From a virus (Duplodnaviria > Caudoviricetes), in IMG/VR virus record IMGVR_UViG_3300020138_000006, positions 16,880 through 80,879 of that record: a stretch of 64,000 nucleotides of DNA; one strand, 5' to 3'. The notes below the pieces were generated by a model that did not search any database, was not told the DNA's origin, and saw only the letters and a list, made by a program, of their open reading frames with translations. Below, piece by piece: positions 37,817-43,937 of the stretch. The number at the start of each line of letters is the position of its first letter. The first letter of the stretch is position 1. The translations under genes and the position numbers were made by a program.

Positions 37817-38100
37817 TGGACGACTTGCAGATCTCTCCCGCCGTGCGCGCGATGCTCGCTGGAGGGACATCCGCCACGGCGCCGCTCGTCGAGTTCGTGG
37901 AGGCGTACTCCGTGGACGACAACCTGTGGTGGAAGACCGACTGCGGCCACCACCAGAACCTGTTCGAGGAGGCGTGTGATCGCCTGGAGGTCGCACTCAG
38001 CAAGCTGGAGGCGATCCGGCGCGTCCTCGACACGGAGCCGATCGGGTGGCGAGACCTGCGCGAGCCGATCAGGGCGGTGCTTGACGGGGTGACGGCATGA
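37816..38100 (+). CDS. Hypothetical protein
   Basis: ATG 37816 after GGAGGAGG. Confidence 0.7.
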   Translation: MDDLQISPAVRAMLAGGTSATAPLVEFVEAYSVDDNLWWKTDCGHHQNLFEEACDRLEVALSKLEAIRRVLDTEPIGWRDLREPIRAVLDGVTA

Positions 38101-38624
38101 AGCGCATCGCAGGGCGGGTCCTCGTCGGGATCCGTGAGCCCCTGGGAGGGGCTCTCCGTCGCGGGTACAAGGACTTCTCCGGGAAGCACTCGCAGATCGA
38201 GTACGACGACGGGGACGACGTCCAGCCAGCAGGTCTGGCCGAGGCGAACATCTACACCTCACAGATCCGCGACGACCCCAGGGGTCGGCACATGGTGATC
38301 TTGGACCTGGACGTGCCCGTCCAGGTGTTCCACTCGGCCAACCCGGGGCACAGTCACCTCTACATCGAGAAGCCCGTCGACGCTGACGACTACTTCCACC
38401 TGATGGGTCTGCTCGTCAGGATGGGCATCGTCGAGCAGGGGTACCTGGGAGCTTCGCTCAGTCGTGGGTACGGGGTCCTGCGTGCTCCGTGGATGCCGAA
38501 GAAGAAGGTGACTCGACCCCTGGGGGGACTCCTCGCGGAGGAGGCGCGCAGGAAGGCTGAGGAAGCCCGCGAGTCCCAGTTGTTGGCAGACGCCATGGCC
38601 TACAAGGCTCTGCTGGCGGCATGA
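38097..38624 (+). CDS. Hypothetical protein with AEP-like motifs
   Basis: VILDLD and S.NPGHSHLY; ends YKALLAA. Confidence 0.65.
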   Translation: MKRIAGRVLVGIREPLGGALRRGYKDFSGKHSQIEYDDGDDVQPAGLAEANIYTSQIRDDPRGRHMVILDLDVPVQVFHSANPGHSHLYIEKPVDADDYFHLMGLLVRMGIVEQGYLGASLSRGYGVLRAPWMPKKKVTRPLGGLLAEEARRKAEEARESQLLADAMAYKALLAA

Positions 38625-38625
38625 G

Positions 38626-40311
38626 TCACGCGGCGTGATGACGCAGGTCAAGCAACTGAGACACCGTGTGGATAACGGCGAAGTCCCCCTCCGGACACGA
38701 CTTATCCACACCACCCGAGGCCAGGGCTTCCGCGAGGAGGCTCTGGCCTTCGTGGTTGTAGATGAGGCGCAGTCCGAGGCCGGCGTAGACCTCGGCCTTC
38801 CGCTCGGGGGTCGCCGTGCGCAGCAGGCCAGCCATGCCACCCACCCGCTCGATGAGCTCGGCCACCTGCTCGGCCGAGAGGGCGTCCTGGGGGCACGACG
38901 TGTCGGCGATGCGCCGCTTCAGATCAGCCACCTGCGCCTCACGCTCCGCCAGCGCCTTCGTGATGGCGTCGGAGATGGTGCCGGATTCGATGACGGACAC
39001 CAGGTTAGAGACCTTGTCCTGGGCGTCCCGGAGATGCTTGCGCAGGAGGCCGAGCCCTGCTGGTGGCTGTGCAACCTCCTGCGTGGAGGCCAGCCACTCG
39101 GGGTCAGCCAGGGTGTTGACGATCCAGTCGTCGACGACCTTCTCCAGCCGGTCGGCGCTCACCGAGACGGTCTTTGGGTGCTGAAGGTCAGCGGGAAGGG
39201 AGCGACGGCCCCGGGTGTCGCAGCGGTAGAGGACTCCCCAGGGGCGCTTCTCTGCCTGCATCCGGTGCTCGCACGCGGCGCAGTAAAGCATCCCGCGCAT
39301 CGGGTAGGTGTTGACGGTGGTGCGTGGCTTGCGGCTCCCGGGTGCGCCAGGGTGCGCGAGACGGTCTTGCACGGCGGCGATGGTCTGTTCGTCCACGAGG
39401 GCTTCGTGCGTGCGCTCAGCGGGCCGTACCCAGCCTTCCTGGCCCTTCCAGCGCATCCGCGTCTCGTACCCGGCGGCGATGTCGTCGAGGTCCAGGAGTC
39501 GCTCGAACTTCTCCTGCTTCCCCCAGACGCGGGTGCCGGAGTAGGTGGGGTTGGCGAGGATGGCCCGCACGGCGCTGTGCGACCAGCCTCGGGGGTCCCG
39601 GTGGGAGTTACGGGCCCGGTCGTGCTGGGACGGGGATGGGATGCCTTCGGCGGTCAACAGGTCGGCGATCCCACGGAAGCCTGTGCCGGCGATGTAGAGG
39701 TCGAAGATGCGCGTCACGACGGTGGACGTGACTGGGTCCGGCGCGAGCTTGTGTGCGCGCTGCCCGGAGGCGGCCTTGGCTGGGTTCGGGTGGGGCCCGG
39801 CGTCGACGAGCATGTACCCGTAGGGTGGGCGACCGCCGAGGTGCCGATCGGTTGTGGCGGCGAGGGCTTCCATCGAGGCTCGGGTGCGGATGCGGATGCG
39901 GGAACGCTCGCCCTTCGCCATCCCGCCGAACATCGTCATCATCATCTCGTGCAGGTCGGAGTCGGGTTCGACGAGGCCTCCGACGTCGGGGATGAACAGC
40001 GAGACCCCGTGGTGGGTCAGCAGGGGGAACGTCAGGGAGAACTGGTTGCCGTAGAAGGCACGCTGGGGTTCTCCGACGACGACACCGTCGAACCGACGGT
40101 CAGCACGTGCTGCTTCCGCGAGGAGCTCGGCGGCTTGGGGGCGCCTCTTCCACGGGATGGAACGCGACTGCCCGATGTCGAAGAACTCGACGCTGACGGC
40201 ATGCCCGAGGGACCGTACGCAGTCCAGGGCTCGTCGGATCTGCCATTCGCGGGAGGCTTCGGGGTCCTGTGCGTCTTCCGTCGACACGCGGCCGTAGAAG
40301 GCGAGGTCCAT
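38626..40311 (-). CDS. int: Large serine recombinase (integrase)
   Basis: YGRVSTED catalytic Ser motif, recombinase domain (GGRPPYGY), Zn ribbon CAAC...YRC, coiled coil; 561 aa. Confidence 0.95.
   Translation of the reverse strand: MDLAFYGRVSTEDAQDPEASREWQIRRALDCVRSLGHAVSVEFFDIGQSRSIPWKRRPQAAELLAEAARADRRFDGVVVGEPQRAFYGNQFSLTFPLLTHHGVSLFIPDVGGLVEPDSDLHEMMMTMFGGMAKGERSRIRIRTRASMEALAATTDRHLGGRPPYGYMLVDAGPHPNPAKAASGQRAHKLAPDPVTSTVVTRIFDLYIAGTGFRGIADLLTAEGIPSPSQHDRARNSHRDPRGWSHSAVRAILANPTYSGTRVWGKQEKFERLLDLDDIAAGYETRMRWKGQEGWVRPAERTHEALVDEQTIAAVQDRLAHPGAPGSRKPRTTVNTYPMRGMLYCAACEHRMQAEKRPWGVLYRCDTRGRRSLPADLQHPKTVSVSADRLEKVVDDWIVNTLADPEWLASTQEVAQPPAGLGLLRKHLRDAQDKVSNLVSVIESGTISDAITKALAEREAQVADLKRRIADTSCPQDALSAEQVAELIERVGGMAGLLRTATPERKAEVYAGLGLRLIYNHEGQSLLAEALASGGVDKSCPEGDFAVIHTVSQLLDLRHHAA
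38666..38711. mobile_element. Putative attP within integrase 3' end
   Basis: 10-bp inverted repeat GTGTGGATAA/TTATCCACAC around AAGTCCCCCTCCGGACAC (38681-38698), which has tRNA 3'-end architecture; symmetry centre CC at 38688-38689. Confidence 0.78.
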
Positions 40312-40463
40312 CAGTCGACCTCCTGCTGGACAGCCTCCTGCAGGAGCTTCAGCAGCGCGCGGCCTGCCTTGTCGGGTGGCGTGTACGCCACTGGGGGCAC
40401 GAACCGGACGTCACGAGAGACGGCTTCGTTCCATGTCTTGTCGTGCTTGTTCTGCTCCGCCAT
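40311..40463 (-). CDS. Small protein coupled to integrase (candidate RDF/regulator)
   Basis: ATG 40463 (MAEQNKHD...QQEVD), TGATG overlap with the int start. Confidence 0.55.
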   Translation of the reverse strand: MAEQNKHDKTWNEAVSRDVRFVPPVAYTPPDKAGRALLKLLQEAVQQEVD

Positions 40464-40509
40464 GTCCGCATGGTCGGCGACGCGACGGTGGTCTGTCACG
40501 CCGGTGAGA

Positions 40510-40531
40510 TCTCCGCTACAGCGCAAAACGC
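40510..40531. promoter_or_regulatory. Degenerate operator-like site in int divergent region
   Basis: TCTCCGCTACAGCGCAAAACGC: the operator with a 2-nt insertion, sharing the GCGCAAAACGC flank of the 29948 copy. Confidence 0.35.
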
Positions 40532-40605
40532 AGGCGCGTGACTTGTGCACCAGGCTCCTTCACCATTCAGACATGACCTGTTTCAGCACGTCGATCGCCT
40601 GCAGT

Positions 40606-40707
40606 GTGAAGCGCGCGCTGACGGTGGCCGTGATCGGCCTGGTTGCCTATGTCGCTCTTGCGGTCGCCGTGACTGGCACCGTCCTGCAGCTCGCCGAGGA
40701 GGACTGA
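40606..40707 (+). CDS. Small membrane peptide
   Basis: MKRALTVAVIGLVAYVALAVAVTGTVLQLAEED; alternative start 40573. Confidence 0.5.
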   Translation: MKRALTVAVIGLVAYVALAVAVTGTVLQLAEED

Positions 40708-40709
40708 CG

Positions 40710-41018
40710 GTGCGCAACATCCCGCCGCTCTACCACTGGTCGCCGTCGCGGAACCGGACCTCGATCCGACGCGAGGGTCTGCGACCGACGTGCCCGCACA
40801 TGGGTCGCCTGACCGTCTGTCTCGGGATTTCCCCGGCGGAGGCGTGGGCCTTGTCCGGCGCTCATCGACCCGAGGAGGGCCCGTGGGACCTGTGGCAGGT
40901 TCACGTGGCTGACACGCCCGTGTTCAAGAGTCCGCACTGGGGGCGTTACGCAGAGCTGCGCATCCCACGGCAGATCGACCCGGTCGGCTTGGTCTACGTC
41001 GGGAGCAGGGGACGGTGA
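40710..41018 (+). CDS. Putative ADP-ribosyltransferase-fold protein
   Basis: LYHWSP...SIRREGLRP, VCL, DLWQV, ELRI: Tpt1/KptA/DarT-like motif order. Confidence 0.55.
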   Translation: MRNIPPLYHWSPSRNRTSIRREGLRPTCPHMGRLTVCLGISPAEAWALSGAHRPEEGPWDLWQVHVADTPVFKSPHWGRYAELRIPRQIDPVGLVYVGSRGR

Positions 41019-41329
41019 AGGCGACCGAGATACCGCCCGCATCCAGGGAGGCCGTGCATCAGCGGGACCAGCGCTGCTGCCGGTTCTGCGGACGGGGCGA
41101 TCTGCGGCTGGAACTGCACCACATCGTGTACCGCTCCCAGGAGCGCAACAACCATGACCCGGGGAACCTGATCTCCCTGTGCTACGGGTGCCACCGCCGA
41201 GCTCACACATACCCGAATACGGTGCGGCCGGCCCTGCAGGCGGTGGTCTTGACGCCCTGGCAGACCGGTGCGGCTTGGCTCCGGCACCAGGGGATCGACC
41301 TGGCTTCGCTGTCGGGCGGGACGTTGTAG
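41015..41329 (+). CDS. HNH endonuclease
   Basis: RDQRCCRFCG...LHHIVYRSQ...NLISLCYGCHRRAH. Confidence 0.9.
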   Translation: MKATEIPPASREAVHQRDQRCCRFCGRGDLRLELHHIVYRSQERNNHDPGNLISLCYGCHRRAHTYPNTVRPALQAVVLTPWQTGAAWLRHQGIDLASLSGGTL

Positions 41330-42703: not shown

Positions 42704-42921
42704 CCCTTCTCTCGGGCGAGGTTCATCACGGCCTCGACGATCGGGCCGGTATCGATGTCCGGGGCCGCGTTGTCGATCGCCTCGGCGATCTCCTCACGGA
42801 CCCTCTTGCGCCGCCGCAGCGCGGCGGTGTGCTTGAAGGTCGGGAACCTCTCCTCGACCAAGTCTTCCGTCCACTCGGTGGACGAAGGGACGATCCCCGC
42901 GTTGAACGGCTCGCGGCCCAT
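42694..42921 (-). CDS. Hypothetical protein
   Basis: 75 aa, coupled to ruvB. Confidence 0.65.
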   Translation of the reverse strand: MGREPFNAGIVPSSTEWTEDLVEERFPTFKHTAALRRRKRVREEIAEAIDNAAPDIDTGPIVEAVMNLAREKGWK

Positions 42922-43937
42922 CAGTCGGCCGCCAGTTCCATCGCGCGATCGAGACCCTCAGGGGTGAGCTCCCGGCCCTGAGCGCAGATCCGGATGTACC
43001 CCTTCTGCAGGAGCAGCTTCTCGGTGTGACGCGGGAACGTCGGCTCACCGAGCGCCTGTGCGATCGTCTTCTCGCCGGCACGTCCTGACGGGGAGATCGC
43101 CAGGACACTGAGGAACTCCTGCGCGGTGCGGTCGAGACCGTCGTGCGTCAGCTTCGACCAGGCGAACATCTTGTCCATCGGGTAGCAGTTCGTCACCCAG
43201 GAGTCGACCGGCTGCGGGTAGTCGAGGATCGAGTCCCGCAGGATCCGGACGAGCTGGGTGATGACGCGAGGGTTCTTGTTCGACGCCGAGACGATCGCCT
43301 CACGGTTGAACTCGCCAGGCGGCTGCAGCCCGACCTCGCGGAACAGCCGACGGCCCATGAGGTCGACGATCTTGTCGGCCTCCTCGTCCGTGTACGACTC
43401 CAGTACGGGCTTCACCGTGAACCTGGACAGCACCGCCTCGGGCAGCTTCTGCGCGTCGGTCGTCGCCCCGATCACCGTGACCTTCGGGACGGAGTGCACA
43501 CCGGCGGGTGTGACGATGACGCCGTCCTGGAGGAACGACAGGAGCCACTCGGACTTGGCGCGACCGCCCGAGACCATGAGGTGGATCTCGTCGAGGAAGA
43601 GGATGTCGCCGTCCTGCATGGCGCTGAGGGCGCGCAGTGCGTCGTTGACGTCGACGGCGCCCTGGAGCTCGGCCAGGCCGACGTCCAGGTCCTGTGCGAT
43701 GAGTCGCACGAGCGCGGACTTGCCGATGCCGGCCTGGCCGGAGGCGATCAGCGTGTGGTCCATGCGGGTCTTGCGGATCTTCGCGGACCGTGCTGCCGCT
43801 CGCAGGAAGGCCTTCGCCTCGGACTGTCCGACGTAGGCGTCCCAGGTGCGGGGGTAGTCGGTGCCGTCGAAGAGGGCGTCGCCACGCTTGACCGTGGACG
43901 CTGCTCGCGCCGCGAGGCGCTCTCGCATGCTCGCCAT
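42921..43937 (-). CDS. ruvB: RuvB-like Holliday junction branch-migration AAA+ ATPase
   Basis: YVGQ, DHTL, GQAGIGKS, FLDEIH, IGATT, SRF, NPR, GLD...LLQKGYI....GRELT across the full length. Confidence 0.88.
   Translation of the reverse strand: MASMRERLAARAASTVKRGDALFDGTDYPRTWDAYVGQSEAKAFLRAAARSAKIRKTRMDHTLIASGQAGIGKSALVRLIAQDLDVGLAELQGAVDVNDALRALSAMQDGDILFLDEIHLMVSGGRAKSEWLLSFLQDGVIVTPAGVHSVPKVTVIGATTDAQKLPEAVLSRFTVKPVLESYTDEEADKIVDLMGRRLFREVGLQPPGEFNREAIVSASNKNPRVITQLVRILRDSILDYPQPVDSWVTNCYPMDKMFAWSKLTHDGLDRTAQEFLSVLAISPSGRAGEKTIAQALGEPTFPRHTEKLLLQKGYIRICAQGRELTPEGLDRAMELAAD

What the first reader, a model, noticed from the sequence alone, without database searches (positions are those of the whole stretch)
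38626..38720. attP inside the integrase gene with a tRNA-Leu-like core: integration should swap the integrase C-terminus and remove an ssrA-like tail
Seen: 38681-38698 (AAGTCCCCCTCCGGACAC) has the exact architecture of a tRNA 3' end: T-loop end AAGT, 5-nt T-stem CCCCC, 7-nt acceptor strand TCCGGAC, discriminator A. It is flanked by a 10-bp inverted repeat whose symmetry centre (CC, 38688-89) lies in that core; the 46-bp span fits a serine-integrase attP. The site is within the int reading frame (...GVDKSCPEGD-FAVIHTVSQLLDLRHHAA stop). Recalled knowledge, unverified: actinobacterial tRNA-Leu(GAG) ends ...GGGGGTTCAAGTCCCCCTCCGGACA. C-terminal -AA is a ClpXP/ssrA-type degron, and integration-dependent removal of such a tag is known for the mycobacteriophage BPs-type repressor (tyrosine integrase). 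Inference: integration regenerates the tRNA and replaces the last 18 residues with antisense-tRNA residues (...CPEGD-LNPHA...). The free phage would make an unstable integrase and the prophage a stable or functionally different one. That would be a self-editing serine-integrase switch in a phage with no obvious repressor.
Basis: partly seen in the sequence, partly recalled or inferred. Interest (0 to 1): 0.92.

Follow-up and report, generated by a model that had tools for sequence, protein, structure and literature searches.

The report
Serine integrase gene spanning its attP
An 81-kb actinobacterial phage keeps its attachment site inside the end of its own serine-integrase gene, so inserting into a leucine tRNA gene rebuilds the tRNA and swaps the enzyme's last 18 residues; relatives show that this layout is real, but its regulatory meaning is untested.

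Summary
The 18-mer at 38681-38698 is identical to the 3' end of real tRNA-Leu(GAG) genes. A perfect 10-bp inverted repeat is centred on it. Both lie inside the 3' end of a 561-aa large serine integrase gene.

The structural reading is strongly supported. 14 of 18 chromosomal homologues and 34 of 60 metagenomic ones abut tRNA-Leu on the opposite strand and read into it antisense. attL/attR pairs share the same core. Nine independent attP sites, found or reconstructed, have their dyad centred on the same C of the T-stem.

The degron idea is plausible but unproven:
- Four of nine verified lineages, including both free phage genomes, end in -AA.
- The background rate is 1.5-3.5%.
- Host tmRNA tags end in ALAA.
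- Other lineages do not end in -AA, and some do not change their tail at all.

The layout is not unprecedented. Serine recombinases targeting tRNA-Leu were reported in Mycobacterium AICEs in 2011. Integrase genes that span attP are known from Mx8, SSV and Dehalococcoides DsiB. This scan has also noted the same design on other DNA.

Verdict: a new variant of a known kind.

The parts
38626..40311 (-). int: 561-aa large serine integrase (free-phage form), including the stop codon
   Evidence: ORF. Pfam Resolvase 4-152, Recombinase 194-319 and Zn_ribbon_recom 338-394. R8 and S10 are invariant in the 22-sequence alignment. AF2 mean pLDDT is 84.5 and the confident fold ends near residue 530.
38664..38713 (.). 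Predicted attP, about 50 bp with dyad symmetry
   Evidence: Inverted repeat and centre. The same geometry appears in 8 other attPs of the family, found or reconstructed.
38666..38675 (.). P arm of the inverted repeat. It leaves with the tail-coding DNA to form attR.
   Evidence: I8. The arm is homologous to the P arm of the Antribacter element and of metagenome locus L093.
38702..38711 (.). P' arm of the inverted repeat. It stays with int at attL.
   Evidence: A near-identical int-side arm, one base shorter in spacing, occurs in the Georgenia and Antribacter elements.
38681..38698 (+). Core identical to the 3' end of tRNA-Leu(GAG), in the sense orientation on the + strand
   Evidence: 18/18 match to the tRNA genes in L002, L007, L008, L009 and L012. 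The same 18-bp direct repeat bounds a 47.7-kb island in Cellulomonas sp. JH27-2.
38688..38690 (.). Predicted crossover region (the central dinucleotide lies here, give or take 1 nt)
   Evidence: Dyad centre at 38688/38689. Core polymorphisms between attL and attR in relatives place the exchange 3' of core position 3 (Antribacter), and 3' of position 8 if the T there is phage-derived (Phytoactinopolyspora lineage). This is inferred, not mapped.
38683..38697 (-). Codons 539-543 (CPEGD), encoded by the antisense of the tRNA-like core and retained in both forms
   Evidence: Translation. AF2 pLDDT is below 50 for residues 533-548.
38629..38682 (-). Free-form tail, residues 544-561 (18 aa, ending -HHAA), which is exchanged on integration
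   Evidence: The tail is related to the reconstructed Antribacter tail, which shares the LLDL...AA end.
38097..38624 (+). Convergent neighbour gene (175 aa, phrog_10893, unknown function). Its stop lies 1 nt from the int stop, which leaves no intergenic room for attP.

Best explanation
Window 38664-38713 is the attP of the phage's large serine integrase, and it lies inside the last 60-85 bp of the int gene.

The phage integrates into the 3' end of a host tRNA-Leu(GAG) gene, most likely in a Micrococcales-type actinobacterium. Strand exchange occurs at about the 4th/5th C of the T-stem (38688-38690). The phage side supplies the last 9-10 nt of the tRNA, so an intact tRNA is rebuilt at the int-proximal junction.

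After integration, int runs antisense into the tRNA. The 18-residue tail (ending -HHAA) is replaced by about 9-13 tRNA-encoded residues, and Int goes from 561 aa to about 552 aa. The tail lies beyond the folded zinc-ribbon domain.

This much is shown by comparison with relatives. What follows is inferred, and I put it at about 0.35-0.4. The free-form tail, whose -AA end resembles the hosts' ssrA tag (ALAA), would make Int short-lived before integration. Losing it would leave a stable Int in the lysogen. That is harmless, because a serine integrase needs an RDF to excise.
For: - Domains and catalytic serine.
- 18/18 identity to real tRNA-Leu(GAG) 3' ends.
- 14 of 18 genomic homologues and 34 of 60 metagenomic homologues abut tRNA-Leu on the opposite strand, and their ORFs read into it.
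- 101 of the 120 nearest database homologues end at the stop codon created by the antisense T-loop.
- attL/attR pairs carry the same core 17-61 kb apart.
- An empty site with the same downstream DNA exists in C. denverensis.
- Inverted-repeat runs of 8-12 bp are centred on the same C in the window and in 8 other attPs, against a null of 1%.
- Simulated integration gives the predicted C-terminus.
- For the degron layer: -AA ends occur in 4 of 9 verified lineages and in both free phage genomes (window, L099), against 1.5-3.5% for ORFs of the same composition.
- Host tmRNA tags end in ALAA.
- The linker 533-548 has low pLDDT.
- In one lineage the tail is better conserved than the gene body, and the similarity stops at the stop codon.
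- XXXAA ends are treated as ssrA-like tags on actinophage Int and Rep in PMC8092301.
Against: - No integrated copy of this phage and no close relative (above 56% identity) was found, so its own attB and crossover are inferred from relatives.
- The chromosomal relatives are islands or AICEs, not prophages, and share only int with the window.
- The spacing of the P' arm differs by 1 nt from the nearest relatives.
- Against the degron: the mycobacterial AICE lineage, Cellulomonas, Ornithinimicrobium and others do not end in -AA.
- All three reading frames across the core are in use.
- Some P arms keep the T-loop stop, so Int is the same in both states.
- -HHAA lacks the Leu of LAA.
- The sample of free forms was assembled as it was found, not pre-defined.
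Confidence: 0.85

Rival explanations
1. The architecture is the same (attP inside int, tRNA-Leu target), but the tail swap has no function. Under this view the overlap is a by-product of genome compaction at the convergence of the two transcription arms, and the tail is tolerated junk beyond the folded domain.
For: - The int stop and the convergent gene's stop are 1 nt apart.
- Relatives use all three frames across the core.
- Tails vary in length and sequence, and many do not end in -AA.
- Some family members have the same stop in both states.
- The tail has low to moderate pLDDT.
- McMurdie et al. thought a functional antisense-encoded end unlikely for DsiB.
Against: - The enrichment of -AA ends over background.
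- The window and Antribacter tails converge on the same end even though they cross the core in different frames.
- In L125 and L126 the tail is 84% identical at the nucleotide level, against 61% in the adjacent gene body, and the similarity stops at the stop codon.
Confidence: 0.35
2. The tail changes recombination activity or directionality rather than stability, as reported for Mx8 IntP versus IntX. For example, only the free form would be proficient for attP x attB, or the integrated form would be tuned for RDF-dependent excision.
For: [quoted passage not shown]
- The DsiB authors raised the same idea.
- Part of the tail is encoded by the P arm itself.
Against: - The tail lies beyond the confidently folded zinc-ribbon domain.
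- Most family members in genomes are the short form and must still excise.
- Family members with identical ends in both states exist.
- From general knowledge, no role of the extreme C-terminus is known in the characterised serine integrases.
Confidence: 0.12
3. The site is not an attachment site. The tRNA-like 18-mer and the repeat would be chance, or the arms would serve as DnaA boxes, as another first-stage note suggests.
For: Both arms match the classical 9-mer DnaA box consensus (note e1-5897903; sequence).
Against: - 18/18 identity to the very tRNA that homologous integrases abut.
- The dyad has the same centre in nine independent sites.
- The homologous arms in Georgenia and Antribacter differ from the DnaA consensus.
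Confidence: 0.02

Closest known systems
Serine recombinases of Mycobacterium AICEs that integrate into a tRNA-Leu gene (Ghinet et al. 2011, PMC3218068)
   Same: They belong to the same protein clade (53-55% identity to mycobacterial members) and have the same target. The M. abscessus homologue sits in a Tra/RepSA module that abuts tRNA-Leu(GAG).
   Different: The carrier here is an 81-kb tailed phage, not a conjugative element. That paper does not mention the int/att overlap or the tail swap. The mycobacterial tails do not end in -AA.
DsiB, the ssrA-specific large serine recombinase of Dehalococcoides genomic islands (McMurdie et al. 2011, PMC3146451)
   Same: It is a large serine recombinase whose gene always overlaps attL at its 3' end and reads antisense into a tRNA-like gene. 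The authors speculated that it is fully functional only on the circle.
   Different: Its target is tmRNA, in a different phylum, and it is a CcrB-like enzyme paired with a second small recombinase. No degron-like end has been described.
Myxococcus phage Mx8 IntP/IntX and SSV-type integrases
   Same: attP lies inside the integrase gene, so integration rewrites or splits the enzyme. Mx8 also targets a tRNA gene (cited in PMC4383910).
   Different: These are tyrosine recombinases, and a much larger part of the protein is exchanged or lost.
Integration-dependent immunity of mycobacteriophages (BPs type), as described in PMC8092301
   Same: attP lies inside a regulatory gene, integration removes a C-terminal ssrA-like XXXAA tag, and Int also carries such tags.
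   Different: There the edited gene is the repressor and the integrase is a tyrosine recombinase. Here the edited gene is the serine integrase itself, and no repressor link is shown.
Canonical phage serine integrases (Bxb1, phiC31)
   Same: The domain set is the same, and so is the roughly 50-bp dyad attP centred on a crossover dinucleotide.
   Different: Those integrate inside protein genes, with 5-8-bp common cores and attP outside int (PMC8092301). Here the common core is 15-18 bp because the phage must rebuild the tRNA end.

Membership tests
Large serine recombinase / serine integrase | N-terminal resolvase catalytic domain with the nucleophilic serine | tested here: met
   Pfam PF00239 matches residues 4-152. 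R8 and S10 are invariant in 22 aligned members.
Large serine recombinase / serine integrase | Recombinase domain plus a zinc-ribbon domain with an inserted coiled coil | tested here: met
   PF07508 and PF13408 match. The AF2 model shows long helices at 420-471 between the zinc-ribbon strands.
Large serine recombinase / serine integrase | Short attP (about 50 bp) with dyad symmetry around a central dinucleotide | tested here: met
   10-bp arms with the centre at 38688/89. The same centre is found in 8 related sites.
Large serine recombinase / serine integrase | Recombination of attP x attB by Int alone, with a 2-bp staggered cut | not testable with these tools
   This needs an in vitro or in vivo assay.
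tRNA-Leu-targeting actinobacterial serine recombinase clade (Ghinet 2011) | Sequence membership in the clade | tested here: met
   53-56% identity over 93-94% of the length to Mycobacterium, Mycolicibacter and Cellulomonas members.
tRNA-Leu-targeting actinobacterial serine recombinase clade (Ghinet 2011) | attB in a tRNA-Leu gene | tested here: inconclusive
   This holds for the homologues, and the phage core is identical to that tRNA end. No integrated copy of this phage was found.
Integrase genes spanning attP (Mx8 IntP/IntX, SSV, DsiB) | attP inside the int coding sequence, so that the two states encode different C-termini | tested here: met
Integrase genes spanning attP (Mx8 IntP/IntX, SSV, DsiB) | Tyrosine recombinase chemistry (Mx8, SSV) | tested here: not met
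   The domains are those of a serine recombinase. The window works like Mx8 but is not a member; DsiB is the serine analogue.
Integration-dependent immunity (BPs type) | attP inside the repressor gene, with integration yielding a stable truncated repressor | tested here: not met
   attP lies in int. No repressor was identified among the 30 ORFs scanned.
ssrA-like C-terminal degron | C-terminal -AA (LAA-like) end resembling the host tag | tested here: inconclusive
   The window ends in -HHAA, and host tags end in ALAA. -AA is enriched among free forms but is not universal.
ssrA-like C-terminal degron | ClpXP-dependent degradation | not testable with these tools
   This needs half-life measurements with and without ClpX, and an AA-to-DD mutant.

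The most novel reading that the evidence does not exclude
Placing attP inside the 3' end of int is a selected regulatory device in t(m)RNA-targeting serine integrases. The free element would encode an Int with a degradation-prone or otherwise regulatory tail, and integration would remove it. Int stability would then be hard-wired to the integration state, and would set lysogeny frequency without a dedicated regulator.
Probability: 0.3. Interest if true: 0.8.

Novelty: new variant of a known kind. Interest (0 to 1): 0.58.

Why it matters
Serine integrases are the main tools for inserting large DNA, and textbooks describe them as using short cores inside protein-coding genes.

A well-populated actinobacterial clade behaves differently. 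It was found in 21 of 401 sampled genomes of the class. It targets a conserved tRNA end with a 15-18-bp core and rebuilds the gene.

This offers ready-made, non-disruptive landing sites in many Actinomycetota, Mycobacterium included.

If the tail swap controls Int stability, it would be a minimal switch that senses the integration state. It would be a serine-integrase counterpart to Mx8 IntP/IntX and to integration-dependent immunity. It can be tested directly with two constructs and a ClpX knock-down.

Tried and rejected
- Megablast of 38000-41000 against GenBank phages gave no match.
- The single-protein scan of IMG/VR found only 24%-identity relatives. The alignment-based scan found five relatives.
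The direct junction test could therefore not be run.
- Two papers were not held: Broussard 2013 and Mageeney 2020.
- My first regular expression for the antisense core failed. I classified those loci by ARAGORN and by eye instead.
- L090 and L094, the loci that encode P0101 and P0083, have the core without a tRNA but no significant inverted repeat. I did not count them as verified attPs.
- Tandem-array junctions, such as M. komossense L070 and the Ornithinimicrobium and MAG arrays, can join an int to a foreign P arm, so tails read there may not be cognate.
- Host tRNA-Leu loci with several core copies made some attL/attR pairings uncertain (Nocardia, Ornithinimicrobium).
- PHROGs and Pfam scans of about 30 ORFs found no repressor, HTH protein or recognisable RDF. 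This is inconclusive, not evidence of absence.
- The chromosomal elements proved to be islands or AICEs that share only int with the window, so they say nothing about this phage's lifestyle.
- Genome G316 is unpublished and was not used.

Full report
**What is there.** The window is bases 16880-80879 of an 80,879-bp IMG/VR virus record rated 97% complete.
- It is a tailed phage of about 67% G+C. It has a 1778-aa tape-measure protein, a primase/helicase and a Sak4-like annealing protein.
- Rightward genes end at 38624 and leftward genes begin at 38626.
- The first leftward gene, 38626-40311, encodes a 561-aa protein with the Resolvase, Recombinase and zinc-ribbon domains of a large serine integrase. 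R8 and S10 are invariant in an alignment of 22 relatives.
The dyad centre is at 38688/89.
- ARAGORN finds no tRNA gene in the window.

**Is the 18-mer a tRNA end?** Yes.
- I fetched 20 chromosomal loci that encode relatives of the integrase, at 44-59% identity over the longer matches.
- In 14 of the 18 loci scanned, a tRNA-Leu(GAG) gene lies on the opposite strand immediately after the integrase match.
- The tRNA genes of the Cellulomonas, Georgenia, Antribacter, Ornithinimicrobium and Nocardia loci end in exactly the window's 18 bases.
- In every one of these loci the integrase ORF runs into the antisense of the tRNA.
- Two frames dominate.
  - One ends five codons into the core, at a TGA made by the antisense T-loop.
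- The other is the window's frame.
- A third frame (...GGLEPPRP...) also occurs.
- Of the 120 nearest database proteins, 101 end at the T-loop stop.
- In a metagenome scan, 34 of 60 complete loci abut tRNA-Leu: 33 GAG and 1 AAG.

**Both junctions.** Searching the host genomes for the core gave attL/attR pairs.
- In Cellulomonas sp. JH27-2 the identical 18-bp repeat occurs twice, 47.7 kb apart.
  - One copy is the tRNA end joined to int.
  - The other is joined to host DNA. In C. denverensis the same host DNA follows an unoccupied tRNA-Leu.
- I joined each attR left arm to the matching attL right arm to reconstruct the attP.
- Inverted-repeat runs of 8-12 bp appear in the window, in seven reconstructions and in metagenome locus L093. 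All are centred 4.0-4.5 nt after the T that precedes the T-stem C-run. At random positions a run of 8 or more occurs about 1% of the time.
- The window's arms are homologous to those of Antribacter and Georgenia, with one extra base in the P' spacing.
- Core differences between attL and attR place the exchange 3' of core position 3 in Antribacter. In the Phytoactinopolyspora lineage they place it 3' of position 8, if the T there is phage-derived.
- With the dyad centre, this puts the window's crossover at about 38688-38690.
- Only the bases to the right of that point must match the tRNA. Relatives do vary at core positions 1-3 and 8, but not to the right.

**Consequence for the protein.**
- Simulating integration into the empty C. 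denverensis site rebuilds the tRNA at the int-proximal junction. The last 18 residues (ending -HHAA) change to nine tRNA-antisense residues, giving 552 aa.
- The AF2 model is confident to about residue 530, the last zinc-ribbon hairpin. It drops below pLDDT 50 for residues 533-548 and reaches about 69 for the tail.
- The exchanged segment therefore lies outside the folded enzyme.

**Is the tail a degron?**
- tmRNA tags of four hosts that carry related elements end in ALAA.
- Among attPs verified by their dyad, four of nine lineages encode an Int ending in -AA:
  - the window;
  - the Antribacter element, whose tail shares the window's LLDL...AA end although it crosses the core in another frame;
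  - the Phytoactinopolyspora element;
  - L099, a 103-kb phage contig whose attP lies in int in the opposite orientation.
- Several unverified junction forms also end in -AA. One group of three shares a conserved ...LWLPAA end. In two of them the tail is 84% identical at the nucleotide level, against 61% in the adjacent gene body, and the similarity stops at the stop codon.
- ORFs of the same composition end in -AA at 1.5-3.5%.
- Counter-evidence:
  - The mycobacterial AICE lineage, Cellulomonas, Ornithinimicrobium and others end differently.
  - Some P arms keep the T-loop stop, so nothing changes on integration.
- I therefore rate the degron function at about 0.35-0.4. The data are statistical and the sample was not pre-defined.

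**What is already known.**
- Islander (2014) stated that serine integrases were not known to target tRNA genes. It also noted that the Mx8 and SSV integrases extend across attP.
- Papers on Mycobacterium abscessus prophages describe Int-S systems as having 5-8-bp cores inside ORFs. They describe XXXAA ends on Int and Rep as ssrA-like tags.
- However, Ghinet et al. [quoted passage not shown] They did not mention any overlap with int.
- The M. abscessus homologue I examined is such an element: FtsK-like Tra, RepSA and the integrase, abutting tRNA-Leu(GAG).
- McMurdie et al. 2011 noted that dsiB, a large serine recombinase gene, always overlaps attL at the tmRNA gene. They wondered whether it is complete only on the circle.
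- Earlier notes of this scan describe the same design on other DNA, at tRNA-Ile, tRNA-Met, initiator tRNA and tRNA-Leu in other phyla. One of them also has an ssrA-like tail. I took from them the lead to the DsiB paper and did not re-test their loci.

**Limits.**
- No integrated copy and no close relative of this phage exists in the collections searched. The nearest integrase is 56% identical.
- The chromosomal relatives are islands, a relaxase-bearing element and AICEs, and they share only int with the window.
- The claim that the phage has no repressor remains open. About 30 ORFs gave no HTH hit.

**Verdict.** The architectural reading is supported at about 0.85-0.9. The stability switch is plausible but unproven. 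This is a new phage-borne variant of a published but little-studied kind.

Noticed in passing
window 38666-38675 and 38702-38711: Both attP arms contain the classical 9-mer DnaA-box consensus, as another first-stage note says. The homologous arms in the Georgenia and Antribacter elements deviate from it, so I read the match as coincidence with integrase half-sites.
   Followed up: partly
G004 contig 1, 2050763-2246783 (L027, L032, L035, L037, L038); G011 contig 3 (L067-L087); G009 contig 23 (L045-L064): The tRNA-Leu(GAG) end is an integration hot spot. Four to six copies of the core, with related P arms, lie in tandem over 20-200 kb, which implies arrays of elements stacked at one tRNA.
   Followed up: partly
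L099:4600-4761 (IMG/VR 103-kb contig); protein P0049: Some family members carry the tRNA-like core inside int in the opposite orientation and read it in the sense direction. L099 has a 12-bp inverted repeat, and its tail ends in -LDAA. Integration would then leave int at the junction that carries the tRNA fragment.
   Followed up: partly
L096, L097, L098 (IMG/VR proviruses), L068, L237: In some elements the P arm keeps the T-loop bases, so the integrase ends at the same stop codon whether free or integrated. The tail swap is therefore not obligatory in the family.
   Followed up: partly
L196 (Mycobacteroides abscessus contig FRYX01000008.1, 95045-101691): An FtsK-like Tra, RepSA and serine integrase module abuts tRNA-Leu(GAG). 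The M. abscessus prophage papers I read list Int-S sites only inside ORFs, so this AICE site seems to fall outside their catalogue.
   Followed up: partly
window 38626-38638: The int stop codon and the last codons sit in a 13-nt palindrome, 1 nt from the stop of the convergent gene. No intrinsic terminator was looked for between the two arms.
   Followed up: no
window 38097-38624: The convergent neighbour (175 aa) matches phrog_10893 and, weakly, a Pfam AEP-like primase model (E 4e-4, below the cut-off). After integration it would be the gene nearest to attR.
   Followed up: no
window 41015-41329 and 42921-43937: An HNH endonuclease lies 0.7 kb upstream of int, and an AAA+ protein (which other notes read as RuvB-like) hits PHROG clamp-loader families. 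Neither was examined further.
   Followed up: no
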